NCBI RefSeq assembly: GCF_029232205.1
Contig: NZ_CP107255.1
Coordinates: forward strand, 570,001-602,000
DNA: 32,000 nucleotides
Direction: 5' to 3'
Source: Candidatus Saccharimonadota bacterium
GTDB lineage: Archaea > Nanohalarchaeota > Nanosalinia > Nanosalinales > Nanosalinaceae
Part shown: positions 18,597 through 32,000 of the stretch, piece after piece
Layout: every line of letters starts with the position of its first letter
Position numbering within the stretch: position 1 is the first letter of the stretch
The notes under the pieces: model-generated
Seen by the model: the letters and a program-made list of their open reading frames with translations, nothing else
What the model was told of the DNA's origin: nothing
Database searches by the model: none
Made by a program: the position numbers and the translations under genes

Positions 18597-18636
18597 AAAG
18601 CTGTTATCCGGGCCTGAAGCTTAAGAATAAATCCTT

Positions 18637-19269
18637 CTACAGTGAGCCTGAGGAGAAGATCAGAAGCATTAATGTGGTGATAAGTAGTCCTGTAGAGGTT
18701 ATTCCTGTAATCAGCATTCTCAGTTTGACGTCGTCTTCTTCAATGTTTTCGTTGAGGAAGATCAGTACTGCGGGAGCTGCAAAACCTGCTAGAACCGGTA
18801 TTGCCTGAACAGGCCATGGAATAAACGACAAACTTCCTACACCTAATGCCAGGACTCCTCCAAGTATGAAAGAGGTGACAGCGCTCGCGATCAGGACAAG
18901 GCCTTCATCCAGTTCAATCTGATATCCATAGGAAAGATATCCTGATGATCCAAGAGTTACCAGAAGAGGTATCAGGCCTATTACAAATGTAACCGGTGTA
19001 AGGCCGCCATCGCTGACTGCATTTCTCTGCTCTCCTCCTGAGAAATTATATGCATCAAGATTACCGCATTCAACTTTTTCTACCTGCTCTCCGAAGAGCG
19101 TGGCATTGTAAGGAGAACCTGTAATATCTACAAAAGCACCATCCGAGGCCACATCACACTGAGCCCTCAAACTATCCTTGTAATCTTCCGCAGCTGACTG
19201 TGCCGATACTACCGAGGCCAGAGATACAAAAACTATCAGAAGCGATGCCAACTTGGCCTCTTTTCTCAT
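18637..19269 (-). CDS. membrane protein with signal peptide, small Cys-containing ectodomain and 3-4 TM helices (210 aa)
   Basis: Signal peptide MRKEAKLASLLIVFVSLASVVSAQS. Hydrophobic stretches in the C-terminal half. TATA-like ttaaataaatag on the minus strand about 30 nt upstream. Confidence 0.75.
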   Translation of the reverse strand: MRKEAKLASLLIVFVSLASVVSAQSAAEDYKDSLRAQCDVASDGAFVDITGSPYNATLFGEQVEKVECGNLDAYNFSGGEQRNAVSDGGLTPVTFVIGLIPLLVTLGSSGYLSYGYQIELDEGLVLIASAVTSFILGGVLALGVGSLSFIPWPVQAIPVLAGFAAPAVLIFLNENIEEDDVKLRMLITGITSTGLLITTLMLLIFSSGSL

Positions 19270-19445
19270 GTATAATCCCTTTTTCAGCCGCCTTAAATAA
19301 ATAGAGGGAATATATGTAGCTATACTCTAAACATATCCCTATTCTGTGATTAACAGGACAAAATTCACCAACTTCCAACCACTCCAAAACTAAGTACAGA
19401 ACATATTTGATTGATAACTCAAAGCAATCATCGAAAGATAAGGAT

Positions 19446-20471
19446 TTAATCCCCAGGCCAGTTTGGATAATTAACCGAAGGAGAGTCTTCTTGCCTGAGC
19501 ATTAATTTCTCACCAAGTTCTTTATCCAAACCTAGGATATCAAAAATTATCAGCTCAACTATCTTCTTGAGCTGCATTGGAGCTCTTTTATTATTCATGA
19601 GTTTTTCAGAGTCCATTTTATGGGCAATTGGATTCCTTATACTCCTATGAGTTTCTATTATATCTTCAATCTCTTCCTGTTCAAATTCAAAATCCAGCTC
19701 ATTGTTTAAGTACATTAAGATTTTGTGCTTTATGCTGTGTTCATACAGAAATTTGGCCTTAAACCGATGTTTGAAGAATTTTGCCTTTTGGGAATCCAGT
19801 TCCTGTTCTAAAAACCTATCTAATTTTTCTTTCAGATCCTTTTGCTCATCTCTGGAAAGTATTCTATTTTCCTCATTAGGTCTGACATATTTATCATAAT
19901 TCCTATTTGCCTGTTTCTCTAACAGCAGCCATCTCATTAGAAATTTTATCTCAAAAAGAGCTCCCTTCTCTAAGGAATAGAGGTAAACACGGATTGTGGA
20001 CAGAATATTTTGGCGCTCTTCTTCACTGGCATCAATTAAGGTTTCCAAGGCAACATCAACAAACTCAGAAATATCGCGCGTAAAGAACGCGCCTTTAGTA
20101 GAGATCCCCTCTATCAATGGAATGTTCTTGTTTGATATTCTCGGAAGATTTTTGGAAGCTACAGACCTAGACTTGTAACCCTTGCTGTATTTGTATCGAC
20201 CGTGATAGAATACATTTCTCCTATATGCAAAAGAAAAAATAAAGCTCAGCCAAGTTGCCAGATTCTTAGCTTTTTCCTCATCTCCAGTTTTTATGTAGCA
20301 TTTAGCAGTCTTCCAATTTTTATCTCTAAACTTAGAATTAAAATCTCTCCTACCCTCTTCAAAATCTTCGGCTACTTTAAGAGGTTCAATTCTCACACCC
20401 TCTGCTTCATATACGTAAACCTCTCCTTCAGGCAAATATAAATTAAAAAAATCAAAAACATATGTCGTCAA
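19446..20471 (-). CDS. HEPN-motif protein (341 aa), Abi/ApeA-like candidate RNase; compositionally foreign
   Basis: TTG start. C-terminal ETHRSIRNPIAHKMD carries the canonical HEPN R-N-x-x-x-H signature (R279..H284). The protein is K/R-rich and near-neutral, unlike the acidic neighbours. The DNA is visibly more AT-rich and has no AGGCCT copies. Confidence 0.75.
   Translation of the reverse strand: MTTYVFDFFNLYLPEGEVYVYEAEGVRIEPLKVAEDFEEGRRDFNSKFRDKNWKTAKCYIKTGDEEKAKNLATWLSFIFSFAYRRNVFYHGRYKYSKGYKSRSVASKNLPRISNKNIPLIEGISTKGAFFTRDISEFVDVALETLIDASEEERQNILSTIRVYLYSLEKGALFEIKFLMRWLLLEKQANRNYDKYVRPNEENRILSRDEQKDLKEKLDRFLEQELDSQKAKFFKHRFKAKFLYEHSIKHKILMYLNNELDFEFEQEEIEDIIETHRSIRNPIAHKMDSEKLMNNKRAPMQLKKIVELIIFDILGLDKELGEKLMLRQEDSPSVNYPNWPGD
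19620..19637 (-). other. codons for the R-N-P-I-A-H HEPN catalytic motif
   Basis: Verified codon by codon on the minus strand: agg aat cca att gcc cat. Confidence 0.6.
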
Positions 20472-20484
20472 ATCCTACACCTAG

Positions 20485-20497
20485 AAAAAAGAAAAAA
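20485..20497 (-). terminator. oligo-T tract (TTTTTTCTTTTTT on the minus strand) directly after the proS stop
   Basis: Read directly from the sequence; this is the archaeal terminator-type signal. It is the only sequence between proS and the SD-like AGGTG of the HEPN gene. Confidence 0.35.
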
Positions 20498-21976: not shown

Positions 21977-22049
21977 ACATTGGTTTCTGAAGGCAACGTT
22001 TTTCTATTTAAAGAAAAGAGAGGTAGGAAAATGAAGATTTGGAAGTATG

Positions 22050-24974
22050 TTATGGTCGGGCCATGAAGAGGTAGGCTGTGCTGGATAGTAGCATGAGGAC
22101 TACGATCTGTGTGAGGCCTATTCCTGGCACTGCTTCTCCTGAGCCCTGTGTGCTGGAGATTGTCTGGTTGATTGGTTCTGTGACGTTTACTCTGATGCTG
22201 TCTGATCCTGTGATTGTTCCGTCTTCGGATTCTGCGTAGACTGTGAGTTGTGTGTTGTCTACGTTCTGGTTTCCTCCGTACAGGCTCATTGTGTATGTTC
22301 TTGATGATTCTGGGCCTAGTGTTACCTGGAAGGTGTCGCTTTTTGTGGATTCATCCTGTGAGAAGAATGACCATGGGTCGTTCCAAGGTGTTGAGGTTGA
22401 GTCTCTGAGCTCTACGTTGAATGTGAGTTCTGTGTTTTCTACGTTGATTAGCTGGAACTGTGCGAGCCTTGAGGATCCTCTTGGTACCTGTACTTTGTCT
22501 TTTCTGAATACTACAGGCCATTCTTCGTACCAGGAACCTCCGTAACATGAGATTACTCTTGTATCTCCTCCCAGGTCGAAGTCTATCTGTGCTCCGGGCT
22601 GGTATAGTTTTCTTTTAGAGGTTCCTACTTCGGAATAGTGTTCTCCATCTAGTATGCATGCTTCGCTGTTTGATGCTACTCCGACTACAGAGTTGTTGGT
22701 ATCACATAGACTTGTGACACAGTCCTGTGTAACAAGATATTCTGAGTCATCGTCTCCTCCACAGAATCCTGGTGTTGCTATTGTATCGTTTGTAACACCG
22801 TTTCTCTGGTCTGTCGAACCTGTTGGTACTGGGCTTGTTGACCCCAGACTGTTTGATGAAGTGAAGGTCTGTTCTGGCCTTGAGTCAATATTTCTTGATG
22901 TTTCTCCTTTCAATGCTCTCTGCTCTTCGATAAACTGGTTGAAGTCATCATCTATACCGCCCTTGAAAGCTGCAGGATGCTCAGCGATTTGACCTTCGCT
23001 AAACCATCTTATGCCTTCAGGCCCGTAAACTGTGTTCTCTCGGCAAAGCCTCTCCTTGAAGTCCTGATCATACCATCTTGCGACTTCGTCGTCGTCTACC
23101 ATTGCGCAGACTTCTTTATCATTTTTGGCTCTTCCAAAGTCCTCATCAGGCTCGTCGGTCTGACGGTACTCCTCTCTTTCGAATATCTTTCTGCCTTCAG
23201 CGCTTGTATCAACACATACGTCCTGTGAATCAGCACATGCATATTTGCCGTCTCCTGCTATAGATCTCTTTGACTCTCCCATCTCTTCGAGCAGGTATTC
23301 TCTCCTATCATCTCCACACATAGGAGGTTCTAGCAGTGGAGTAGTTTCACCGACAGTACCATTACTGTTTATCTCTTCATCAACCACGTTATCTCCATCA
23401 TTATCCTCGCCATCTGCTTCCCCTTCAAAGTATACGTTACCATACATGACGTACGACCGCGGTGATCCATACCCGGAACGGTAGGTTATACCTGCGTTGT
23501 CATCAAGATTAAATCCTAATCCCATATCAGGGCCTGTAATATCGATATTGTAGACTAGCTTAGGCTGCCATCCGCCTACAATCAGATCATTCATAGAACG
23601 GATGTCATCAGGATCAATCCATACTCCATCCCCTTCCCTAACTTCTCCGAAAGCTCCGGTAAAGTTATCTGCCGCTATAGCTGCGAAAGAGTTACCAAAT
23701 ACTTTCGAGGTCTTGGAAACACTGTCAGAAGTAAATGCTCCTGGATCGCTTGGAACTGTTCGGAAAGAGCCCGAGTAATCCCTGTGGTAGTAGGTACCTC
23801 CATCGCTGCTGTATGTAGAGTGGTAAAGACCTCCCTGTCTTATCTGTGCATCCTGACCTGTAGGACCTGGAGGATAGGCCTCTCCTCTGTTGGAAATAGA
23901 CCAGTTAAGATGCCTTGTAATAGCCCATTGATCTGCGCTTCCCTGAGAGCCATCAGAATCAGTCCAGATACCGTAGTCAGCAGGATTATAGGCGCTGGTA
24001 TCCATTCCAGGCTCCAGCTGGTTGCTTGACTCTTCAAGCTTGTTTACATAACCCTGATAGTAGTAATTAGTGCCACTTGCACTGTCGCCAGTAGGCATGT
24101 AATCCTCATCTCTCACGCCTACTCCAGTATAAGTCTTCTCTGCGGCCTTATCAACCGTAAAACTCCAGGTATCAGTAGTACGGCACTGACCTGTCCCATC
24201 ACAGGCCTCAATAAACCAGTTGTAAGTTTCGCCATCATTGAGGCCTTGCCAGTACGCTGTAACGGTGTCGCCGCTTGCAATATCTTTTGACTCTATAAGA
24301 GAACCGTCAGCCTGTTTGAACTCTACAGTCATCGAGTCATCATTTGGATCTGTAATTCGCACTGATAGATTGGTTGTTGTTCTTGTAACAGTTGCACCGT
24401 CCTCAGGAGTTCTGAAAGACGGCGTGTTCGGTTTATCTGCGCTTGAGGTAACTTTAACATCATCGATCCAGACCTGCCAGGATCTATCCTCTGGCTTGCT
24501 GCCACAGAAGCTAGAACTACTGATGCTCCCTGCTGTTAAAGTAAAATCTTTATCTGCTGACTCTACATTAGCCTCGTATGATCTCCAGCCTGAATCATAG
24601 CTGTTCCCTGACCGAACTCTATCAATAAGCTCTCTTACACCATTGGAATCCTCAATAAAGATTGTTCCAGTACCCCAGCTATCAAGCTGAATCCTGTAGT
24701 CAAACTCAAGGTATTGTGGCTGCCTGTTAAAATCAAAGGTCTTGCTTATACCTCCCTCACCACATATCTCATAACGATTTCCGGCCGTAGCTGATTCACC
24801 TGGAGTAGAGTAGCTTCCTGTAGTGTCAGCAGTACATGTATCCATCGCACGTCCTGTAGAAGAGCAACTCCAATCACTTTGAGTGCCGGAGAAATCCTCC
24901 TCATACATCTGTCCTGTCGCCGGAGCTGCAAAAAGCGCGACCATCAACAGGACTGTGATCAAGGCCTTTTTCAC
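22050..24974 (-). CDS. very large exported surface protein (974 aa) with an FN3/Ig-like domain, two Cys-framed modules, a CARDB-like C-terminal domain and a C-terminal membrane anchor
   Basis: GTG start overlapping the upstream gene's TGA (GTGA). Signal peptide MKKALITVLLMVALFAAPATGQ. FN3-like segment PNTPSFRTPEDGATV...YNWFIEACDG...WSFTVD. Asp-rich GEADGEDNDGDNVVDEE. C-terminal VPGIGLTQIVVLMLLSSTAYLFMARP. Confidence 0.85.
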   Translation of the reverse strand: MKKALITVLLMVALFAAPATGQMYEEDFSGTQSDWSCSSTGRAMDTCTADTTGSYSTPGESATAGNRYEICGEGGISKTFDFNRQPQYLEFDYRIQLDSWGTGTIFIEDSNGVRELIDRVRSGNSYDSGWRSYEANVESADKDFTLTAGSISSSSFCGSKPEDRSWQVWIDDVKVTSSADKPNTPSFRTPEDGATVTRTTTNLSVRITDPNDDSMTVEFKQADGSLIESKDIASGDTVTAYWQGLNDGETYNWFIEACDGTGQCRTTDTWSFTVDKAAEKTYTGVGVRDEDYMPTGDSASGTNYYYQGYVNKLEESSNQLEPGMDTSAYNPADYGIWTDSDGSQGSADQWAITRHLNWSISNRGEAYPPGPTGQDAQIRQGGLYHSTYSSDGGTYYHRDYSGSFRTVPSDPGAFTSDSVSKTSKVFGNSFAAIAADNFTGAFGEVREGDGVWIDPDDIRSMNDLIVGGWQPKLVYNIDITGPDMGLGFNLDDNAGITYRSGYGSPRSYVMYGNVYFEGEADGEDNDGDNVVDEEINSNGTVGETTPLLEPPMCGDDRREYLLEEMGESKRSIAGDGKYACADSQDVCVDTSAEGRKIFEREEYRQTDEPDEDFGRAKNDKEVCAMVDDDEVARWYDQDFKERLCRENTVYGPEGIRWFSEGQIAEHPAAFKGGIDDDFNQFIEEQRALKGETSRNIDSRPEQTFTSSNSLGSTSPVPTGSTDQRNGVTNDTIATPGFCGGDDDSEYLVTQDCVTSLCDTNNSVVGVASNSEACILDGEHYSEVGTSKRKLYQPGAQIDFDLGGDTRVISCYGGSWYEEWPVVFRKDKVQVPRGSSRLAQFQLINVENTELTFNVELRDSTSTPWNDPWSFFSQDESTKSDTFQVTLGPESSRTYTMSLYGGNQNVDNTQLTVYAESEDGTITGSDSIRVNVTEPINQTISSTQGSGEAVPGIGLTQIVVLMLLSSTAYLFMARP
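22053..22133 (-). other. PGF-CTERM-like sorting/anchor tail (P-G-I-G + TM helix + short basic end)
   Basis: Last 27 residues are AVPGIGLTQIVVLMLLSSTAYLFMARP. Haloarchaeal PGF-CTERM has P-G-F, then a TM helix, then basic residues. Here Phe is replaced by Ile. Confidence 0.45.
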
Positions 24975-27900
24975 TGGTACCCCACCAACTGCCAGAAGAA
25001 GCTGAAGAAGACCGGAGTCTTCCCCTCTGTCTGAGTTTCCTGATCATCGCAGCCAGTAAGCAGAGGCCCACAGTTGTCTTCAAGAGTTACTCCGATGTTT
25101 TCTCCGGAGCCCTGGCCTTTAGGATTGTAGTCAGGATGGTAAGGATTTTCGTTCTGACGCCAGTAAAATGCTATCTGTGAGGCGTTATCAGGATCTCCTC
25201 TCTGACTGCTATCAATTAGATCATGGCCATTGCCACTGCTTCTCAAGTATTCGTTTACTCTTTCGTTGTCAAGATCGTACCATTCTCCACCGACCTCTTC
25301 AACGGTACCATCGTCATCATAGTCATAGTTATCATACGTTACATCATCACCAGGATCATCGGCTGGAAGAGTCTCCTCGTAGACAATACCGTCCTGCGTA
25401 AAGCTTTCACCACTGCTATCGATCGCAAGACAGACTTCTTTATCAGGAGAATAACCTCCTTCCTCATAATCCGAGTAAGCCTCTGTACCAACGGTCCTGA
25501 CAGTTCCCTCAGGAACATCTTCTCCATACCACAGACAATCAGTAACCCTGTCAGCAGTACCTTCAAGGTGATGGCTCTTAATAGGGCCTTCATTAACTTC
25601 AGGGCCCTCCATCGCTATCCAGAACTCTTCTGTAGTATCTCCAGCACACCGCTTATCTGAACTCTGTGTAGGGCTGTCGGAGTCAGATCCATAGTTTGAA
25701 CCGATTGCTGCATCTGGATCAAGTTCCTGGAACATCTTGCAGACTCCAAGAGACTGATTGGTATCCTGAATATTGCTTTCGAAAGTTACTGCTGTGGGAT
25801 AGGCCTGGCTGCCTGCCTGATAGGAAGGATCTGTCGGGTTATCCCAGTTGTTGATATTCCGAGGCCTTATATCCAGAGCTCCTACACAGTGAGTGAAAGG
25901 ATCGCCGCAGCCATTAGTATTGATACTTACATGGCCCAGCGCATCTGCAGGCTGAACAATATCCATAGCGCCACCGCTGTTCGTCTCAGTATTCATGAAC
26001 CTGTTACTGACTCCCTGAATCTCAACCTGGCCGTTTCCAAGATAACCTCTTCTCTGCAGAATTGCCATATAACCATCGGACTGGCCCTGAGGCCCGTCAA
26101 CATCCCATGATTGGAAGTAATCTCTGACAGATTCAAATGCATCACCGTCTACCCTCATATGGTATGAGCTGGAGGAAATGGCTTCGTCATTACCTAGCAT
26201 ATTGTTATCAGTATCTACAGCATAGGCATAGTAGGAATCACCGTTGAAGGCGTTGTACTTAATATTTGAGCGGGTGTAAGCCTCATCTCCATACTTGAAA
26301 GTGTCGCCCTCAAAGAGTGCATCAGTAGGGAACATTGGTGCGTAAGAAGGATTCTCCGCAGGATTCAAATCGAATACTTTCTCAGTATGAAGCTCAAGAT
26401 CCTCGTACCGGTAGGTGATTGTGTTGCTTGTCTGGCCCGTAGCAATATCCTGATTTGAAATCGGCCCGACAGTATCAACTGAAGGACTATCACTACAGCC
26501 AATGCTACTATCGCAAGATTCTTCTTCTGTTTCACTCAGACACGAGTCGTCATCTACTTGTTCGGTCTCGTAACCTGGATGATGAGTTACTTCTACAGAT
26601 AGCTGATTTAGATTTGTACTTTCCTTACTATGTTGATGGCTTCCGCTGCTGTCTGCATAATACTGCTCGTTATCATTGGTTGAAACAGTGGTAGTTGTCT
26701 CGCTCTTTAGAGTGTATTTTGTATCAGTATCTTGATCTATACTTGTACACTTCTCGGTACCCGTACCAGAGCAGTTAGCTCCAGAACACTGATCAACAGA
26801 ACCTCCGTCCTCGCCCCAAGTCTCCACATTCTTATCACCAGTAAGATCATAGTCTGTAACTGATGCATCTGATTCCGAAGAACCGATATAAGACTCTCCA
26901 ACTTTTTCCGGATATACCATCCAAAGCTCATCAGGTACACTATCCCCGTCATCATCTTTCAGATAGTAATCAGGAACATCCTCCCATTCCTGATCCTGGA
27001 CAACCTGATCATCAACCTCACCAGCATCAGCCTGTGTGCCACTCTGAAGGTCGGCCGTGTACGGATCAGAACCACTGATATCATCTGTTTTCTGGCCCTG
27101 TGCCTCTGGGGCTATAAGTCCTGATCCGGAGTTACTAAACTTGTATTCAATAGTATCGTCAGTGTCATCGTTACTGTTCTTTGAATTTAGATATTCTCCA
27201 TTGTTTGCATTATTGTTAGAATCGCCAATAGACACACCGTTAGCATTATTGGCATCCCATTGACCAATATTACTGTTAAATCGATCAGAGAGAGTCTCTG
27301 AGGACTGGCTCTTAGTCGTTCCAGCATCGTCAGGAAGACCGTAGTCCTCAGGACAGTCAAGGTTATTCTCATCACCTCCTCTTACCGCATCACCACACTG
27401 AGAGCCATCGCCGGTAGTAGTATCATCATGTGGAGCATCAATCAACTCTGCAGAACCATCTTCTACAGCAGTAGTCGTGGAACCTGGCATGTTTCCTTCA
27501 TGACGGGACTCGCTAATACTTATTGTCTCACCTCTCAAAACCCCCGCAGCCCAGTCATTAGAACCTTCAACATAGGTCTCATTAATTTGATCAGTATCCA
27601 GAACCTGGTCAGGACTGACAGTTACAGATGAACCGTTCTGAATTACCTCTGCACCGTAGAAAATAGAGGAGTCATCTTCTGTTGGAGATGAAAGATACTG
27701 GCCGAAGACCCAGGAAGCATCCAGGTCGTAGATATTGGCCTCCGAATTATCATATTCATAAGGTGGAGAACACCCTGGATCCGGGCCGCTAGCTCCAGCC
27801 TCTTGCCAGTTAGGAGTTCCATCATTATCACTGTCAGCTCCCTCTCCATCAACCAAACCATCACCATCATTATCATTTCCATCCAAGCATGCGGAAGGTT

Positions 27901-28063
27901 GTGCAGGAGAATCTGGCGGAGAAGTGCCGGTATCCTTAGCGCCGCCAGTGAATTCATAAGAAGAAACAAGGCCAGCAGCGGTCAAGAACAAAAGGACTAC
28001 AACTAGAGCTTTTCCTACATTCATACAATTCATAGGTGAGACCCTGAATAAAAAACCTCTCAA
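24971..28063 (-). CDS. very large secreted acidic protein (up to 1030 aa) with an N-terminal Asp-rich metal-binding-type motif and a C-terminal Cys-framed module
   Basis: The maximal ORF starts at TTG 28063. The more likely start is ATG 28024 (MNVGKALVVVLLFLTAAGLVSS, a signal peptide), which has a TATA-like ttttttatt about 27 nt upstream. D/S/T/G/N-rich with scattered Cys. Stop overlaps the start of the 974-aa gene. Confidence 0.85.
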   Translation of the reverse strand: MRGFLFRVSPMNCMNVGKALVVVLLFLTAAGLVSSYEFTGGAKDTGTSPPDSPAQPSACLDGNDNDGDGLVDGEGADSDNDGTPNWQEAGASGPDPGCSPPYEYDNSEANIYDLDASWVFGQYLSSPTEDDSSIFYGAEVIQNGSSVTVSPDQVLDTDQINETYVEGSNDWAAGVLRGETISISESRHEGNMPGSTTTAVEDGSAELIDAPHDDTTTGDGSQCGDAVRGGDENNLDCPEDYGLPDDAGTTKSQSSETLSDRFNSNIGQWDANNANGVSIGDSNNNANNGEYLNSKNSNDDTDDTIEYKFSNSGSGLIAPEAQGQKTDDISGSDPYTADLQSGTQADAGEVDDQVVQDQEWEDVPDYYLKDDDGDSVPDELWMVYPEKVGESYIGSSESDASVTDYDLTGDKNVETWGEDGGSVDQCSGANCSGTGTEKCTSIDQDTDTKYTLKSETTTTVSTNDNEQYYADSSGSHQHSKESTNLNQLSVEVTHHPGYETEQVDDDSCLSETEEESCDSSIGCSDSPSVDTVGPISNQDIATGQTSNTITYRYEDLELHTEKVFDLNPAENPSYAPMFPTDALFEGDTFKYGDEAYTRSNIKYNAFNGDSYYAYAVDTDNNMLGNDEAISSSSYHMRVDGDAFESVRDYFQSWDVDGPQGQSDGYMAILQRRGYLGNGQVEIQGVSNRFMNTETNSGGAMDIVQPADALGHVSINTNGCGDPFTHCVGALDIRPRNINNWDNPTDPSYQAGSQAYPTAVTFESNIQDTNQSLGVCKMFQELDPDAAIGSNYGSDSDSPTQSSDKRCAGDTTEEFWIAMEGPEVNEGPIKSHHLEGTADRVTDCLWYGEDVPEGTVRTVGTEAYSDYEEGGYSPDKEVCLAIDSSGESFTQDGIVYEETLPADDPGDDVTYDNYDYDDDGTVEEVGGEWYDLDNERVNEYLRSSGNGHDLIDSSQRGDPDNASQIAFYWRQNENPYHPDYNPKGQGSGENIGVTLEDNCGPLLTGCDDQETQTEGKTPVFFSFFWQLVGYQ

Positions 28064-28138: not shown

Positions 28139-28210
28139 TTGTCTATATTGAAAAGAAGAGGATTTCTAGCCGCAACAGGAACCGCAATCGCAACAGGCCT
28201 AGCCGGATGT
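28139..28210 (+). other. Tat signal peptide plus lipobox
   Basis: MSILKRRGFLAATGTAIATGLAGC contains the S/T-R-R-x-F-L consensus plus L-A-G-C, the classic haloarchaeal Tat-lipoprotein arrangement. Confidence 0.7.
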
Positions 28211-29830
28211 AGTGGTGTAACAGGAGGAAATAATAATAATAACCGCGAAGGTTCTACCAGCAAAACCAATATCTCTGTAAGTATCTCTACTGAGGCCGAA
28301 CCCTCACAGCTACCTTCTATCTGGAACGATCAGAGTATCGAAGACTTTCAGGCAGAGTTCTCCGTTGAGACCAGCGGGGGCCCAACACAGGCAACAGTCT
28401 CAAATGGAAAAGTAGAGATCAACCAGGAATCAGAGCAGTGGAACAGCAACACAGTAACAGTACAGCCAGGCCAGATGAACTCTGGAGAACAAGAATTCAC
28501 AGCAACAGCCGAGAAAAACGGAACACAGGCCCAAGATACTACAACAGCCACCAAACCAACTCCTGGCAACTACAAAGTCGACGTAGTGCCAGAGAGAAAC
28601 GAAGAACTCCGAAGCACAATCGAAAACAACTCAGACGAAGAAGATTACTTGGAGGCCCGCGGCAACTTCGTCGAACAAGACCCAGTATTCGATACTTACA
28701 GCAGCCACAAAGCCGTAGGATTCGACAAACTCGGAATCGACCTAGTCGCACGAGAATGGAGACACGACAACGACTACGAAAGCCTAGAAACTGGTAGTCC
28801 AGAAGCATCCCGAGAATTCATCCAAAGCATAGGCACCGACACCGGAAACCCTGATATACAGGCAATAAAAAACGGAAACTCAGGAACAACTTGGTACCCA
28901 AATGGCAACTTCAGCCAGAGAGACGCAGGACACTTCGACTACCAAAAATTCGCCAACGCACAAACAGTAGGAGAAGCACTCGACCAAGTGCATCCATACT
29001 ACTTCAACTGGCAATCAGACATACTCGGCAGAGAACCAACCTCCGCAGTCGACTTCATCGACGCACCAGTCCTCGAACAGGCCATCGAACAGAAAAACAA
29101 TAATGACTTGGAGGTACATGCCTGGGACTTCGACCTCGATGAACACGGAAACGGCCTCATCTACGGAAAGAACGCGGATGGCAGCGACGAACTCCGCATC
29201 ATGGAGACAGTCACCAACCCAGTAACAGCATCACCAGCAAATGTCCACGAACAACTACACCCACTAGTTGAGGACTCAAACTACCTCAACCCAGAACACG
29301 ACGAATTCAACCGGTACTGGCACCCACTCAGATTCGGATGGGAAGAACACAGCAACAGCACACGATGGAACTTCGAAGAAGAGAAACGGCGAGCAAGCCA
29401 AATGATTCAAAACATCGCCACTTCTGGACGCCTAGCCCGCACATCAGGCGAAGGCTCCGGAATGGAAACAACAGAAACAGTAGCACCAACAACAGAATAC
29501 CTCCAAGACTTCACAGAAAAACTGAGAAACTACAACCAAAACGATGCAGAATTCCAGCAACTACACAACCAAGCCAAAATAGCCAACGAACTGGTTAGAA
29601 GAGACAGTAAAGAAAATTTCGTAATCTATGGCGATACGGAGAATCCGCAGTACGCGGTAGTAGAAGATGATGAAGTTATTGAGGATATCTGGGAGGATGA
29701 GGATGGCCAGTATGATGATTTCAACCAGTTCCTCCGCGACAACCCTTCATACTCAATGAGCACAGAAGAAATCGATGCCACACTAGAAGGAGAACAAACA
29801 GAAGACCTCAGCCAGCAAACGCTGGCCTGA
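28139..29830 (+). CDS. Tat-exported lipoprotein of unknown function (563 aa)
   Basis: TTG start, or the in-frame TTG at 28148. Twin-arginine motif KRRGFLAA followed by the lipobox LAGC (Cys24). Thr/Gln/Asn-rich linker and an acidic C-terminal tail. No further Cys. Confidence 0.85.
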   Translation: MSILKRRGFLAATGTAIATGLAGCSGVTGGNNNNNREGSTSKTNISVSISTEAEPSQLPSIWNDQSIEDFQAEFSVETSGGPTQATVSNGKVEINQESEQWNSNTVTVQPGQMNSGEQEFTATAEKNGTQAQDTTTATKPTPGNYKVDVVPERNEELRSTIENNSDEEDYLEARGNFVEQDPVFDTYSSHKAVGFDKLGIDLVAREWRHDNDYESLETGSPEASREFIQSIGTDTGNPDIQAIKNGNSGTTWYPNGNFSQRDAGHFDYQKFANAQTVGEALDQVHPYYFNWQSDILGREPTSAVDFIDAPVLEQAIEQKNNNDLEVHAWDFDLDEHGNGLIYGKNADGSDELRIMETVTNPVTASPANVHEQLHPLVEDSNYLNPEHDEFNRYWHPLRFGWEEHSNSTRWNFEEEKRRASQMIQNIATSGRLARTSGEGSGMETTETVAPTTEYLQDFTEKLRNYNQNDAEFQQLHNQAKIANELVRRDSKENFVIYGDTENPQYAVVEDDEVIEDIWEDEDGQYDDFNQFLRDNPSYSMSTEEIDATLEGEQTEDLSQQTLA

Positions 29831-29855
29831 GCCCTAAAAAACTTCTGTCTCCTTC

Positions 29856-32000
29856 TTAGTTTCCGTTTTTCAGGTAGTCAGATATTTCACTGGCTCCCAT
29901 CTTGTCGAAGCTGTAGCTCAGGTTCTGCTGCCACATCTCATTCATCTTCTCGACCTGGCTGCTAATTACTCTCCGAGTGAGATCTGATTTCTCTACGTCT
30001 AGAGGGAACGAACAACCTCCACACACTGCCTGCTCATCAAACCAGGATTTCTGTATGTTGTCATTGAAAGAACCTTTTAGCAAGCTTTGCGCACGAGTCT
30101 GCGCCTTAGCTACATCATCAGTAGATCTCACATCAAGATTTCCTTCACCAGTAATTACTGCGCCGTTGGAGTTGGTAAACTCGAGGCGGCAGGAATACAC
30201 ATTGGTATTTATCTTTCCAACAAGAGGGACTGGCACCTGAGGGTTAGTTCCTACCCCAGTAACCTCCTTCGCAAACCAATCTTCCTCGCGTGTAGAAGGA
30301 TCCAGAGAAGGCCTCTCTGAAAGCTCTCCATCCCAGCATAGAGCCCTGATAGACTCTATTGTAGCAGCCTGATCATTATCAGCATCCTCCTTGGCTTCAT
30401 AATAGGTAGTAAGGAAACTGCTACTTGTTCTAAACTCATATGGCATTATGAAGAATCCTGCAGTATCAGGATTTTCGTTTCCTGTCGGTTCAAATGCGTA
30501 GGCATCAAGATCCCACTGAATATCACCAGTACACTCCCAAAACTGGCCTGTATATCCCCATTGGAGGCCTGGTTCGCAGGTTGGGTAGAATCCTCCGTCG
30601 AAGACACTGTCTCTTAGTACTGATACATCGTTTTCTTGAATGTTTTCTGCGGTTCCTAAGACTCCTGCAGTGTATTGGCCTGTTGCGTTGCTTGGGTTCC
30701 ATACTTGTCTGATTGCTGTTTCGTCGGTGTCGTCTACTGCACGTGTGTATGCTTGTCCTCTTGAGATGTTGAGTTCGTCGTATTTTGAGGCGTTGTGTGT
30801 GTAGGGTCTTTGGTATGTGTCTCCAGTTGAGCCTTCTAGGTATCTTAGTTCTGCTGCGTGGATATGGTCGAATCTTACGTTGTTGAATCCTGAGGTTGTT
30901 GCAAAGCTTGTTCCTTTGAACTCGGCATTTCCTAGAGGTATGGCTTCTTTAGGCACGTAGTACTTGACTGCTAGTGCTGTTTCTGGTGCTGAAGTGTTGT
31001 GGAATGTTCCTAACCGGCAGTCGCCATCTCCAGTACACCTTCTCTGTGGATCACCGTAGCCAGGATAAGTTCGTTGACGCATGTCGTAGAGGCATGCTGT
31101 GTCTTTCTCTGTTGTAACTGGGTCGTTGCCGGTGTAGCTGTTTTCTACAGCATCATATCCTTCACAGAGAAAGATATCGGGCTCTCCGGTACGGACACTT
31201 GAGTAGACGTTGCCATAATCACAGTCAGTGGTGGCATCCGTAAAGGCGGCTCCTGAGTTTTGATCTGCAAACACCACTTTAACGCCGTCACTTTCCCTGA
31301 TGCCTACAGTCGGATCTGCACAGTTATTTTCCACATAGGGCAACCAAGAGTTTGGTTGATTTCCTCTCCAGTCTTGCCCATTTCCTAGCACATCGCACCT
31401 GAATCGACCGTTATCTGTATCTACTATTTCTCCATCCATAGAGCCACGGCAAATATGGAACAACCTATTGCCTTTCAGTATTTCTGTATCCGGGCTGTAT
31501 GTTGAACTATCATCGTGAGCTGGCGTACAGGAGTCAAAGTTATTTTCGAAGGCCGTGCATGCGCCTTTATCCTGACCTATAACATATTCCATGTCTCCGA
31601 AGTTCTGATCCCACACATCCTGTGCACCTAGGTTATCTCCCAAGTTGTGGTTGTTTGTGAAAACTTCTGATGTAGAACCTATATCCGATAGAGAAGTAGC
31701 CTCATGACCTAGTATTTCACCTGGTTGAGGCCTATATCTTCCGTAGTCATCCTCTCCATCAGGCCAGGCTTTCCAGTCTGTCTCTTGAAGAAGTATATCT
31801 CCCTGATTTATGTCGTTTACTCCGTGAATATTGCTGTTTCCAGGACTGTTGTAGAAAGGCTCCCTATCGTTCGTTAAAATAAAGTCTCTTATTTTATTCG
31901 CATTTACGTCCATCTCAACATATAGATATGCTCCTTTATTTGCACTTACACGGTCTTTAGGCTCTACAGTTAGATCAAAGGTACCTACTGTAAAGGACTC
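29856..32000 (-). CDS. large Cys-rich extracellular-type protein, 5'-truncated by the window edge (more than 714 aa)
   Basis: The ORF track starts it at ATG 31913, but I translated 31914-32000 in the same frame and found no stop (...ESFTVGTFDLTVEPKDRVSANKGAYLYVE-MDVNANK). The listed N-terminus has no signal peptide, so the gene most likely begins beyond 32000. More than 20 Cys, acidic, N-x-S/T sequons. Confidence 0.8.
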   Translation of the reverse strand, partial: ESFTVGTFDLTVEPKDRVSANKGAYLYVEMDVNANKIRDFILTNDREPFYNSPGNSNIHGVNDINQGDILLQETDWKAWPDGEDDYGRYRPQPGEILGHEATSLSDIGSTSEVFTNNHNLGDNLGAQDVWDQNFGDMEYVIGQDKGACTAFENNFDSCTPAHDDSSTYSPDTEILKGNRLFHICRGSMDGEIVDTDNGRFRCDVLGNGQDWRGNQPNSWLPYVENNCADPTVGIRESDGVKVVFADQNSGAAFTDATTDCDYGNVYSSVRTGEPDIFLCEGYDAVENSYTGNDPVTTEKDTACLYDMRQRTYPGYGDPQRRCTGDGDCRLGTFHNTSAPETALAVKYYVPKEAIPLGNAEFKGTSFATTSGFNNVRFDHIHAAELRYLEGSTGDTYQRPYTHNASKYDELNISRGQAYTRAVDDTDETAIRQVWNPSNATGQYTAGVLGTAENIQENDVSVLRDSVFDGGFYPTCEPGLQWGYTGQFWECTGDIQWDLDAYAFEPTGNENPDTAGFFIMPYEFRTSSSFLTTYYEAKEDADNDQAATIESIRALCWDGELSERPSLDPSTREEDWFAKEVTGVGTNPQVPVPLVGKINTNVYSCRLEFTNSNGAVITGEGNLDVRSTDDVAKAQTRAQSLLKGSFNDNIQKSWFDEQAVCGGCSFPLDVEKSDLTRRVISSQVEKMNEMWQQNLSYSFDKMGASEISDYLKNGN

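What the first reader, a model, noticed from the sequence alone, without database searches (positions are those of the whole stretch)
19270..20497. AT-rich, non-acidic HEPN (R-N-x-x-x-H) gene wedged behind proS: candidate single-gene Abi/ApeA-like defence islet
The 341-aa ORF carries ETHRSIRNPIAHK near its C-terminus, a textbook HEPN Rx4-6H motif with the polar residue after Arg. Upstream of the motif is a roughly 270-residue domain of unknown function. That architecture is typical of stand-alone HEPN abortive-infection or anticodon-nuclease-type defence proteins; no MNT or antitoxin partner is adjacent.

The gene differs from every neighbour in several ways:
- It is visibly more AT-rich.
- It is Lys/Arg-rich and roughly neutral in an otherwise strongly acidic proteome.
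- It has a TTG start.
- It has zero copies of the otherwise ubiquitous AGGCCT word.

It sits alone between a housekeeping tRNA synthetase and a membrane-protein gene. This looks like a recent horizontal acquisition, possibly from a non-salt-in donor. Defence systems are poorly charted in DPANN-type genomes.
Basis: partly seen in the sequence, partly recalled or inferred. Interest (0 to 1): 0.7.

Follow-up and report, generated by a model that had tools for sequence, protein, structure and literature searches.

The report
Acquired ApeA-like HEPN defence gene
A tiny salt-loving archaeal symbiont carries one foreign-looking gene for an RNA-cutting (HEPN) protein whose catalytic half is related to the bacterial antiviral protein ApeA but whose front half is short and unlike anything known, making it a credible but untested one-gene virus defence.

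Summary
Window 19446-20471 (-) is an intact 341-aa TTG-started ORF with GC 0.358 (z = -6.8 against the rest of the window) and pI 7.05, among neighbours of pI 4.0-5.5. Only the missing AGGCCT word is not significant (P about 0.1).

R279 and H284 (RNPIAH) are invariant across 27 homologues down to 19% identity, as are F177, W181, E185 and K250. Residues about 128-328 form a HEPN domain of the ApeA type:
- one family member passes Pfam HEPN_Apea's curated cut-off;
- the best solved-structure match is Ec4ApeA;
- a profile-profile comparison with five ApeA proteins gives 81% probability (E 1.2e-5) and aligns both motifs with ApeA's invariant W377/E381 and R508/H513.

The N-terminal 125-aa alpha/beta domain matches nothing, including ApeA's 320-aa sensor region.

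The family is rare (33 clusters among 1.84 billion representatives), has no conserved partner, and lies in defence or mobile contexts. Named members are Halobacteria, the class that hosts nanohaloarchaea. The closest sequenced relative has proS directly followed by the amidohydrolase gene, so the gene was inserted.

Verdict: a horizontally acquired, stand-alone 'mini-ApeA' HEPN RNase. It is a new architectural variant of a known kind, and its function is untested.

The parts
19446..20471 (-). Complete CDS, 341 aa, TTG start, TAA stop: two-domain 'mini-ApeA' HEPN protein
   Evidence: ORF listing. The start is fixed by an in-frame TAG two codons upstream and by homologue N-termini. It is 100% identical to the NCBI hypothetical protein of Ca. 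Nanohalovita haloferacivicina over 329 aa.
20091..20471 (-). N-terminal alpha/beta domain, aa 1-127 (five strands and two helices, then a low-confidence linker at 98-127); proposed sensor or regulatory module
   Evidence: AlphaFold model, pLDDT about 85-94 for aa 1-95. This is the most conserved part of the family: N10, I28, F37, R41, T55, A56, S80, F81, R85 and N114 are at least 90% conserved. There is no match to Pfam, PDB sequences or the ApeA N/Mid region.
19488..20090 (-). HEPN domain of ApeA type, aa 128-328 (all-helical, with a helical insert between core helices 2 and 3)
   Evidence: Domain model with pLDDT 88.6 and pTM 0.80. hhalign against five ApeA proteins: 81% probability, E 1.2e-5, aa 132-308 aligned to ApeA 323-537. 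Pfam HEPN_Apea hits in homologues. PDB profile best hit 9hxm_A, Ec4ApeA. PADLOC CARF_HEPN match at E 1.4e-4 on aa 181-305.
19917..19943 (-). F177-x3-W181-x3-E185 motif on predicted core helix 2, carrying the conserved HEPN acidic residue
   Evidence: F177, W181 and E185 are invariant in 27 sequences. They align with ApeA's invariant W377/E381.
19620..19637 (-). R279-N-P-I-A-H284, the Rx4H catalytic motif at the C-terminal end of the predicted helix 265-285
   Evidence: R and H are invariant in 27 sequences. They align with ApeA's invariant R508/H513. The position at the end of helix 3 is as described for HEPN domains (PMC3710099; secondary structure).
20478..20482 (-). AGGTG Shine-Dalgarno-like word 6 nt upstream of the TTG start
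   Evidence: Read directly from the sequence. Its function is inferred.
20484..20497 (-). Oligo-T tract (TTTTTTCTTTTTTC) directly after the proS stop; probable proS terminator and left edge of native DNA
   Evidence: A similar T-rich tract follows proS in the relative L087, and homology with L087 ends here. The terminator role is inferred from general knowledge of archaeal oligo-T termination.
19311..19445 (-). AT-rich 3' flank of the HEPN gene (GC 0.32-0.38) with no counterpart in relatives; the right-hand part of the inserted segment
   Evidence: Fine-scale GC profile. The alignment with L099/L100 loses homology upstream of about 19311.
19287..19310 (-). Conserved TATA-like promoter block (TTCCCTCTATTTATTTAAGGCGGC) of the downstream membrane-protein gene; native DNA that marks the right edge of the insert
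   Evidence: Near-identical in L099 and L100, where a NUDIX gene rather than the HEPN gene lies upstream.
18637..19269 (-). Context only: 210-aa signal-peptide/multi-TM ORFan with native composition. It is not a partner of the HEPN gene, but it is part of the 1870-bp difference from the closest relative
   Evidence: GC 0.460, pI 4.15. Only one homologue is known (67% identity), and there it follows a NUDIX gene and precedes the same amidohydrolase gene. It is absent from L087.

Best explanation
The gene encodes a stand-alone, two-domain HEPN ribonuclease that entered the Nanohalovita lineage by horizontal transfer. It landed in the proS-amidohydrolase junction, which varies between relatives.

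Shown:
- The C-terminal 200 residues are homologous to the HEPN domain of ApeA.
- The catalytic Arg-x4-His and the helix-2 acidic residue are strictly conserved.
- The N-terminal 125 residues form a separate, strongly conserved alpha/beta domain with no detectable relative.
- The family has no conserved partner gene, is rare and patchy, and sits in defence or mobile-element neighbourhoods.
- The closest sequenced relative lacks the gene at this junction.

Inferred, by analogy with ApeA and other HEPN defence RNases:
- The protein dimerises through its HEPN domains to form a composite, metal-independent RNase site.
- It is held inactive until the N-terminal domain, alone or with the HEPN insert, senses an infection-derived signal.
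- It then cleaves RNA, either host tRNA anticodon loops (growth arrest or abortive infection) or viral RNA.
- The TTG start and the lack of its own TATA box behind the proS oligo-T tract suggest low expression by read-through, which would suit a toxic effector.
For: HEPN identity:
- R279/H284 and F177/W181/E185/K250 are invariant in 27 sequences down to 19% identity.
- Family member P0024 scores 28.6 bits on Pfam HEPN_Apea (cut-off 24.4) and P0018 scores 24.3. Four of 27 members hit HEPN_Apea, and others weakly hit Csm6, RiboL-PSP and Cthe2314 HEPN models.
- PADLOC CARF_HEPN matches the window protein at E 1.4e-4.
- The best PDB sequence match of the family profile is Ec4ApeA, 9hxm_A (E 0.0034, both motifs aligned).
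- hhalign against five ApeA proteins gives 81% probability and E 1.2e-5 over 173 columns. W181/E185 align to W377/E381 and R279/H284 to R508/H513.
- In the confident domain model (pLDDT 88.6) the motif sits at the end of a long helix, preceded by a helical insert. This matches the HEPN description in PMC3710099.
- UniProt already names the Halovivax ruber member 'Apea-like HEPN domain-containing protein'.

Defence role:
- ApeA is a single-protein defence that cleaves tRNA anticodon loops or phage RNA after ligand sensing.
- Family contexts include: a type IIG R-M enzyme plus IrrE/DUF4411 plus a transposase (L092); an OLD-like AAA_15/TOPRIM protein (L006); TerB and BrxC-like genes (L002); a position between two integrases with an IS240 element (L102); and a mobile region of Halorubrum sp. 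LN27 (L001).
- No partner is conserved.

Acquisition:
- GC z = -6.8 and pI 7.05.
- The closest homologue outside the source genome is only 41% identical among 5.8 billion clusters.
- The relative CP046106.1 (ProS 94% identical) has proS and the amidohydrolase gene 36 nt apart.
- L099/L100 carry NUDIX-membrane-amidohydrolase, with homology to the window ending at about 19311.
Against: - No experiment exists, and there are no expression data for this organism (the published transcriptome is from another strain).
- The window protein itself hits no Pfam or NCBIfam model, and no family member hits an ApeA model in PADLOC.
- The polar residue after Arg is not conserved in the basic clade.
- No virus of this organism is known.
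- Defence context is absent in the window itself, where the neighbours are housekeeping genes.
- Insertion against loss in relatives cannot be strictly polarised, because the junction differs in every genome examined.
- Low GC relative to flanks is family-wide, so it does not show that the transfer was recent.
Confidence: 0.6

Rival explanations
1. The gene is a selfish toxin remnant. In this reading it is the toxin (or a fused toxin-regulator) of an addiction module from a mobile element that decayed after integration. It would persist by post-segregational killing or by drift, with no antiviral role in the nanohaloarchaeon.
For: Halobacterial homologues lie between integrases and IS elements or in provirus-like regions. 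HEPN domains are common toxin-antitoxin toxins (PMC3710099). Nothing in the window links the gene to other defence genes.
Against: No antitoxin-like partner (MNT, ParA/Soj or a small upstream ORF) is conserved in any of the nine loci. No integrase, transposase, tRNA or flanking repeat accompanies the window copy. The large, strongly conserved N-terminal domain argues for regulated activity rather than a bare toxin.
Confidence: 0.15
2. The gene is inactive cargo. In this reading the ORF is intact but not expressed or not functional in this host: a neutral passenger that has not yet decayed.
For: The start codon is TTG. No TATA-like box is visible in the 26 nt between the proS stop and the start, and an oligo-T tract lies directly upstream. 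The protein's pI of 7.05 is far from the acidic proteome expected for a salt-in cytoplasm. No expression data exist.
Against: The ORF is full length. All six family-invariant residues and the ten nearly invariant N-domain residues are retained. The Shine-Dalgarno-like AGGTG is correctly spaced. The pI is already shifted from 9.2-9.8 in the basic clade towards the acidic clade.
Confidence: 0.12
3. The gene is ancestral and was lost elsewhere. In this reading it is an old resident of the proS junction that relatives have deleted, and its odd composition reflects the family's amino-acid bias rather than foreign origin.
For: The junction is rearranged in every relative examined. GC3 (0.357) lies within the native range. 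The family is AT-biased wherever it occurs.
Against: None of about 120 nanohaloarchaeal ProS-bearing lineages contributes a homologue above 41% identity. The other named members are Halobacteria or a gammaproteobacterial MAG. The AT-rich 3' flank has no counterpart in L099/L100, whereas the adjacent promoter block is conserved. Total GC is 6.8 sd below the local mean.
Confidence: 0.08
4. The protein is a housekeeping RNA-processing enzyme. In this reading the HEPN protein serves cellular RNA maturation or turnover rather than conflict.
For: Some HEPN proteins process cellular RNA, for example Las1, Swt1 and the KEN domains (PMC3710099).
Against: The distribution is extremely sparse and patchy: 33 clusters in 1.84 billion representatives. 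The gene is absent from the closest relative and lies in mobile or defence contexts elsewhere.
Confidence: 0.05

Closest known systems
ApeA (Ec1-Ec4ApeA, Thr1ApeA; PDB 9hxm; bioRxiv 10.64898/2026.01.26.701840 and 10.64898/2026.03.20.713152)
   Same: It is a single-gene system whose C-terminal HEPN domain is of the same sequence type. The helix-2 W-x3-E and helix-3 R-N-x-x-V/A-H motifs align with ApeA's invariant W377/E381 and R508/H513. The HEPN domain carries a helical insert between its core helices. There is no partner gene. It occurs next to R-M genes and on mobile DNA.
   Different: It is about 330 aa rather than about 600 aa. ApeA's N-terminal (about 1-198) and Mid (about 199-309) domains, which with the HEPN domain form the ligand pocket, are replaced by an unrelated 125-aa alpha/beta domain (hhalign probability 0.14%). 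No ApeA model in PADLOC is hit. Oligomeric state, trigger and RNA target are unknown.
Pfam PF18739 HEPN_Apea proteins of Halobacteria (e.g. Halovivax ruber Halru_0830 / UniProt L0I7B8)
   Same: They belong to the same family as the window protein: 33-37% identity over the full length, with the same two-domain architecture and motifs.
   Different: Those proteins are acidic (pI 4.4-6.0) and sit in GC-rich genomes. The window copy is neutral, has 36% GC, sits in a DPANN genome, and falls below Pfam detection on its own. None has been studied experimentally, as far as the held literature shows.
HepT/MntA (HEPN-MNT) toxin-antitoxin systems (PDB 5yep, 6m6u, 7ae8)
   Same: Both have a minimal four-helix HEPN fold with an Rx4H site. 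HepT chains are the only recurring natural family among the weak Foldseek matches of the domain model. HepT is also reported as the nearest structural neighbour of ApeA's HEPN domain.
   Different: There is no adjacent MNT gene. The protein is 2.5 times larger and has an extra N-terminal domain. The Foldseek matches are not significant (E 2-4).
CARF-HEPN effectors Csm6/Csx1
   Same: The HEPN halves give weak profile matches: PADLOC CARF_HEPN at E 1.4e-4, and Pfam Cas_Csm6_HEPN at E 0.0095 for one member.
   Different: The matches cover only the HEPN part of those profiles (positions 319-431 of 476). There is no CARF domain and no CRISPR-Cas neighbourhood.
AbiJ-type and MAE_18760-type HEPN proteins with swapped N-terminal domains (PMC3710099)
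   Same: The design principle is the same: one HEPN effector fused to interchangeable, poorly understood N-terminal domains of about 100-300 aa, encoded as solo genes in defence contexts.
   Different: No sequence match to those HEPN families or their N-terminal domains was found.

Membership tests
HEPN superfamily | Conserved R-x4-6-H motif | tested here: met
   R279 and H284 are invariant in 27 homologues down to 19% identity.
HEPN superfamily | Polar residue (N/D/H) immediately after the Arg | tested here: inconclusive
   N280 is present in the window protein and in most members outside the basic clade; P0019 has S, P0037 has H, and P0040/P0044 have V. In the basic clade the position is A, I, M, G, V or T.
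HEPN superfamily | Second conserved acidic residue on helix 2, upstream of the motif | tested here: met
   E185 is invariant, lies on the predicted helix 173-190, and aligns with ApeA's invariant E381.
HEPN superfamily | [quoted passage not shown] | tested here: inconclusive
HEPN superfamily | Metal-independent RNase activity | not testable with these tools
   Requires biochemistry.
Pfam PF18739 HEPN_Apea | Score at or above the gathering cut-off (24.4 bits) | tested here: inconclusive
   The window protein gives no hit even at E <= 10. Its full-length homologue P0024 scores 28.6 bits over profile positions 10-134 of 136, P0018 scores 24.3 and P0011 scores 15.9. Membership therefore holds by transitivity, not directly.
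ApeA defence system | C-terminal HEPN_ApeA domain homologous to that of characterised ApeA proteins, with the catalytic residues | tested here: met
   hhalign of the family against five ApeA proteins gives 81% probability, E 1.2e-5 and 173 columns, with both motifs in register. hmmsearch against the PDB puts 9hxm_A first.
ApeA defence system | ApeA N-terminal and Mid domains (about 310-330 aa) that form the ligand-binding pocket with the HEPN domain | tested here: not met
   Only 127 residues precede the HEPN domain. hhalign of the N-domain profile against ApeA gives probability 0.14%. The fold class also differs: alpha/beta here, whereas the ApeA monomer is described as predominantly helical.
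ApeA defence system | Recognised by a defence-finder ApeA model | tested here: not met
   No ApeA model appears among the PADLOC hits of any of the 27 members at E <= 0.1.
ApeA defence system | Single gene without a conserved partner | tested here: met
   Neighbours differ in all loci examined.
ApeA defence system | Doughnut-shaped decamer or dodecamer, ligand-triggered tRNA or phage-RNA cleavage, phage protection | not testable with these tools
   Requires structural work, biochemistry and infection assays.
HEPN-MNT (HepT/MntA) toxin-antitoxin | Adjacent minimal nucleotidyltransferase antitoxin gene | tested here: not met
   No such ORF exists next to the window gene or its homologues.
CARF-HEPN (Csm6/Csx1) | N-terminal CARF domain and association with type III CRISPR-Cas | tested here: not met
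   Profile matches are confined to the HEPN segment. There are no cas genes in the window.

The most novel reading that the evidence does not exclude
This may be an uncharacterised 'mini-ApeA' family. A previously undescribed 125-aa alpha/beta domain would replace ApeA's 320-aa ligand-sensing region and respond to a different infection signal. The family would circulate on integrative elements of Halobacteria and have crossed from that host class into its nanohaloarchaeal ectosymbiont. That would give a functional one-gene HEPN RNase defence in a DPANN archaeon.
Probability: 0.3. Interest if true: 0.6.

Novelty: new variant of a known kind. Interest (0 to 1): 0.4.

Why it matters
- Gap in the genome description: the genome paper for this cultivated nanohaloarchaeon reports no genomic islands and lists only a type III R-M system as defence (PMC10266531). 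A 1.2-kb single-gene islet falls below the reach of island finders.
- Fit with DPANN surveys: a recent survey finds DPANN archaea poor in CRISPR-Cas and R-M and enriched in compact single-gene systems (PMC12988326). This gene would be a concrete example from a family that current defence catalogues miss.
- Sensor swapping: ApeA's HEPN effector would pair with at least two unrelated front ends. A 330-aa version would be an attractive minimal model for how a sensor domain gates a HEPN RNase.
- Gene flow: nearly all named relatives of the gene are Halobacteria (the one other is a gammaproteobacterial MAG), and Halobacteria are the hosts of nanohaloarchaea. That makes this a testable case of gene flow within a symbiosis.
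- Limits: the catalytic domain type is already catalogued (a Halovivax member carries the UniProt name 'Apea-like HEPN domain-containing protein'), and nothing here is experimentally shown.

Tried and rejected
- Direct family assignment of the window protein: Pfam, NCBIfam and PHROGs gave nothing. Only homologues and profiles reach HEPN_Apea.
- N-terminal domain: no match by profile search against PDB sequences or by hhalign against ApeA.
- Conserved partner: the 172/173-aa upstream ORFs and the downstream ORFs in L001 and L002 are unrelated. The 210-aa membrane protein is not a partner, because it occurs without the HEPN gene in L099/L100.
- Integration signatures: no convincing flanking direct or inverted repeats, no tRNA gene and no Rfam family. 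A short GTAG(A)AGGATTT similarity at the two junctions is at chance level.
- Viral origin: no relatives in IMG/VR contigs (the first attempt failed for lack of conserved columns).
- Synteny through genome contigs with ProS: the scan was saturated by generic ProS patterns and returned no nanohaloarchaeal locus. This was solved with the protein search plus contig look-ups.
- Donor clade: bootstrap NJ left the window protein unresolved between the acidic and basic clades.
- AGGCCT absence as evidence of foreignness: rejected as not significant.
Full report
**1. What is in the sequence.**
The finding points to a real, intact gene.
- ORF and start. The ORF runs from 20471 down to 19446 on the minus strand (341 aa, TTG start, TAA stop). 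An in-frame TAG lies two codons upstream of the TTG. Homologues from unrelated sources begin M-T-T-Y-V-F-D-F at exactly this position. The 341-aa reading is therefore correct. The public annotation of the same protein (329 aa, hypothetical protein of Candidatus Nanohalovita haloferacivicina, 1.047-Mb contig) drops 12 conserved residues.
- GC content. The gene has GC 0.358. The 575 windows of the same length elsewhere in the 32 kb have mean 0.460, sd 0.015 and minimum 0.419, giving z = -6.8. The low-GC stretch runs from about 19250 to about 20500.
- Codon usage. GC3 (0.357) is low but within the native range of 0.34-0.54. Codon-usage distance is the second highest of 21 genes.
- Charge. The protein is neutral (pI 7.05, D+E = K+R = 0.170), whereas every neighbouring real gene product has pI 4.05-5.50.
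- AGGCCT. The word is strongly over-represented in the window (69 copies against 7.07 +/- 2.28 expected) and absent from the gene. With one copy per 464 nt, however, the chance of none in 1026 nt is 0.11, and longer gaps occur elsewhere. That argument carries almost no weight.

**2. The motif is real.**
- A bare R-x4-H would occur by chance in roughly a third of proteins of this size, so conservation is the test.
- The word-indexed search of 5.8 billion protein clusters found 12 relatives. The exhaustive phmmer scan of 1.84 billion representatives found only 33 clusters. This is a small family.
- In an alignment of 27 full-length members, down to 19% identity, six positions are invariant: F177, W181, E185, K250, R279 and H284.
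- The Asn after the Arg is present in the window protein and in most members outside the basic clade. In the basic clade it is replaced by small or hydrophobic residues.

**3. What the domains are.**
AlphaFold with the 12-sequence alignment gave a two-domain model (pLDDT 75, pTM 0.72). The first domain is an N-terminal alpha/beta unit (strands 2-9, 19-21, 26-30, 54-62 and 88-94; helices 33-40 and 65-83). A disordered linker follows (98-127), and then an all-helical region (132-327).

Modelling residues 125-341 alone with 23 sequences gave a confident helical domain (pLDDT 88.6, pTM 0.80). R279-H284 sits at the C-terminal end of helix 265-285, and E185 lies on helix 173-190. Three further helices are inserted between these two. 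This is the layout Anantharaman et al. describe for HEPN: the motif at the end of helix 3, an acidic residue on helix 2, and inserts between helices 2 and 3 (PMC3710099).

Sequence evidence converges on HEPN of the ApeA type:
- The window protein matches a PADLOC CARF_HEPN profile in its HEPN segment (E 1.4e-4).
- Among the 27 members scanned one by one, four hit Pfam HEPN_Apea. Single members hit the RiboL-PSP, Csm6 and Cthe2314 HEPN models.
- P0024 (Natronolimnohabitans) reaches 28.6 bits on HEPN_Apea against a curated cut-off of 24.4, covering profile positions 10-134 of 136. P0018 (Halovivax ruber) reaches 24.3 bits.
- The family profile searched against all PDB sequences puts Ec4ApeA (9hxm_A) first. 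Both the F-x3-W-x2-L-E helix and the R-N-x-x-V-H motif are aligned (E 0.025 for the full-length profile, 0.0034 for the domain profile).
- I recovered five ApeA proteins from plasmid records, spanning 19-100% identity. A profile-profile comparison with them gave 81% probability and E 1.2e-5 over 173 columns. W181/E185 align on ApeA's invariant W377/E381, and R279/H284 on ApeA's invariant R508/H513.

The N-terminal domain is the best-conserved part of the protein, yet it matched nothing:
- no Pfam, NCBIfam or PHROG family;
- no PDB sequence;
- not ApeA's N-terminal or Mid domains (probability 0.14%).

It is a 125-aa unknown domain plus a 200-aa HEPN domain.

**4. Genomic setting and origin.**
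The window's neighbours are ordinary genes: proS, an amidohydrolase, a DEAD-box helicase, an M20 peptidase and FttA/aCPSF1. There are also large lineage-specific secreted proteins.

The ProS search returned many nanohaloarchaeal orthologues.
- Closest relative. In CP046106.1 (ProS 94% identical at the protein level, 85% at the DNA level), proS is followed after 36 nt by the same amidohydrolase gene. The DEAD helicase and M20 peptidase genes lie further downstream, with a 78-aa ORF and a NicX-like gene interspersed there.
- The difference. Relative to that genome the window has 1870 extra bases (18628-20497). They hold the HEPN gene and a 210-aa membrane-protein gene.
- The membrane gene. It has native composition and a single known homologue (67% identity). 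That homologue lies on two short metagenomic contigs in the order NUDIX, membrane gene, amidohydrolase. Its promoter block TTCCCTCTATTTATTTAAGGCGGC is conserved there, and similarity to the window stops just upstream of it, at about 19311.
- The insert. The HEPN segment is thus a separate insert of about 1.17 kb (about 19311-20483). It lies between the conserved oligo-T tract after proS and the promoter of the membrane gene.
- More distant relatives. Other nanohaloarchaea (SG9 and an 87% ProS contig) have still other genes after proS. The junction is a variable spot.
- Integration marks. No repeats, tRNA gene, integrase or Rfam family mark the insert.

No nanohaloarchaeal protein other than the source's own copy is more than 41% identical to the HEPN protein. 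Named members of the family are:
- Halorubrum sp. LN27;
- Halorubrum sp. RMP-47 (UniRef names Halorubrum miltondacostae);
- Halorussus halophilus;
- Halovivax ruber;
- Natronolimnohabitans sp. A-GB9;
- a gammaproteobacterial MAG.

The halobacterial copies lie between integrases with an IS240 element (L102) or in a long run of small unannotated ORFs with a transposase (L001). Metagenomic copies lie in three kinds of neighbourhood:
- after a type IIG Eco57I/MmeI-like R-M enzyme, an IrrE-like peptidase/HTH and a DUF4411 protein, with a DDE transposase further upstream (L092);
- beside an OLD-like AAA_15/TOPRIM protein (L006);
- 3 kb from TerB-domain and BrxC-like ATPase genes (L002).

No neighbour is conserved. 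Nothing was found on IMG/VR viral contigs.

In 9 of 11 loci the gene has clearly lower GC than its flanks, for example 0.417 against 0.605 in Halorubrum. Isoelectric point tracks habitat: 9.2-9.8 in a low-GC, non-halophile clade, 4.4-6.0 in the halobacterial clade, and 7.0 in the window. The window protein's position between these clades is unresolved (60% against 29% of NJ bootstraps). The donor, and whether it was a salt-in organism, cannot be named.

**5. How it most likely works.**
Shown: an ApeA-type HEPN domain with intact catalytic residues, fused to a conserved unknown N-terminal domain. It is encoded alone, is mobile, and is associated with defence or mobile regions.

Known for ApeA. 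It is a single-protein defence. Its HEPN domains dimerise into a composite active site. [quoted passage not shown]
- Trigger: 5'-phosphorylated deoxydinucleotides for Ec2ApeA, and probably a phage RNA structure for Ec1ApeA.
- Target: tRNA anticodon loops or phage genomic RNA.

Inferred for this protein. It has the same effector chemistry and dimerisation. The 125-aa domain acts as the sensor or gate for a different, unknown signal. The conserved polar residues N10, R41, T55, S80, R85 and N114 are candidates for a ligand site.

Expression is probably low. The start codon is TTG, there is an AGGTG six bases upstream, and no TATA-like box fits in the 26 nt after proS. The gene sits directly behind the proS oligo-T tract, so transcription probably depends on read-through (inference). 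No transcript data exist for this strain.

My estimates are about 0.9 that this is an ApeA-type HEPN domain and about 0.6 that the protein works as a triggered defence RNase. I put about 0.3 on tRNA anticodon loops as the specific target.

**6. Comparison with the known, and novelty.**
- It works like ApeA and shares ApeA's HEPN domain. It fails two membership features of the ApeA system as characterised: the N-terminal/Mid sensor region and recognition by a defence-finder model.
- It is not a HEPN-MNT toxin (no MNT gene) and not a CARF-HEPN effector (no CARF domain, no cas genes).
- Public databases already label at least one sibling as an 'Apea-like HEPN domain-containing protein', so the domain type is not new.
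- Three things are new. The first is the recognition of a compact two-domain family with an unassigned sensor-like domain. The second is its presence in a DPANN symbiont whose genome paper reports no islands and only a type III R-M system. The third is the mapped insertion.
- I rate it a new variant of a known kind, of moderate interest (0.4).

Noticed in passing
whole window; also L087, L089, L090, L099: The palindrome AGGCCT occurs 69 times against 7.07 +/- 2.28 expected. It appears in all three codon frames and in intergenic DNA. It is similarly dense (1.9-4.4 per kb) in other nanohaloarchaeal loci but rare (0-0.28 per kb) in halobacterial loci. This is a lineage-wide DNA signature of unknown cause.
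   Followed up: partly
window 20436-20471 (-): The public annotation starts the HEPN gene at the second TTG (329 aa). That removes 12 residues that are conserved in all homologues. The first TTG at 20471 is the true start.
   Followed up: yes
window 18628-20497; L087 7480-7515; L099 1-1346: The proS-amidohydrolase junction varies between relatives. The closest relative has nothing there (36 nt). The window has the HEPN gene plus a 210-aa membrane ORFan. Two metagenomic relatives have NUDIX plus the membrane gene.
   Followed up: yes
window 21977-22049 versus L087 3642-6000: The closest relative carries a hisS-like tRNA-ligase gene and a zinc-ribbon (DZR) gene between the 973-aa surface-protein gene and proS. 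The window lacks both. This is a second indel right next to the first.
   Followed up: no
L001, L004, L093, L096, L101 and others: Genes of this family have clearly lower GC than their flanking DNA in 9 of 11 loci. The largest gap is 0.19, in Halorubrum sp. LN27. Protein pI follows habitat: 9.2-9.8 in the non-halophile clade against 4.4-6.0 in the halophile clade.
   Followed up: partly
full-length model of window 19446-20471: The only near-significant fold match is an unnamed 222-aa viral protein in BFVD, A0A3S6HCY2 (Foldseek E 5.9e-3, probability 1.00, 215 columns). Its identity could not be looked up.
   Followed up: no
P0041 and P0022 (family relatives): P0041 (429 aa) carries only the helix-3/helix-4 part of this HEPN domain, behind an unrelated 320-aa N-terminal region. 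P0022 (464 aa) has an insert of about 130 aa in the HEPN domain. These are either domain shuffling or assembly chimeras.
   Followed up: no
L105 1526-3355 (Enterobacter asburiae IncHI2A plasmid): The plasmid protein that is 100% identical to Ec4ApeA (9hxm_A) over the two aligned fragments is annotated only as 'hypothetical protein'. It does not hit Pfam HEPN_Apea at E <= 0.01 and sits next to the anti-phage gene ppl. The Pfam model therefore misses characterised ApeA proteins.
   Followed up: partly
window 22050-28063 and 28139-31913: Four large ORFs (974, 1030, 563 and 685 aa) have no Pfam match. Three of them are strongly acidic with signal-peptide-like N-termini. These are probably lineage-specific surface proteins.
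   Followed up: no
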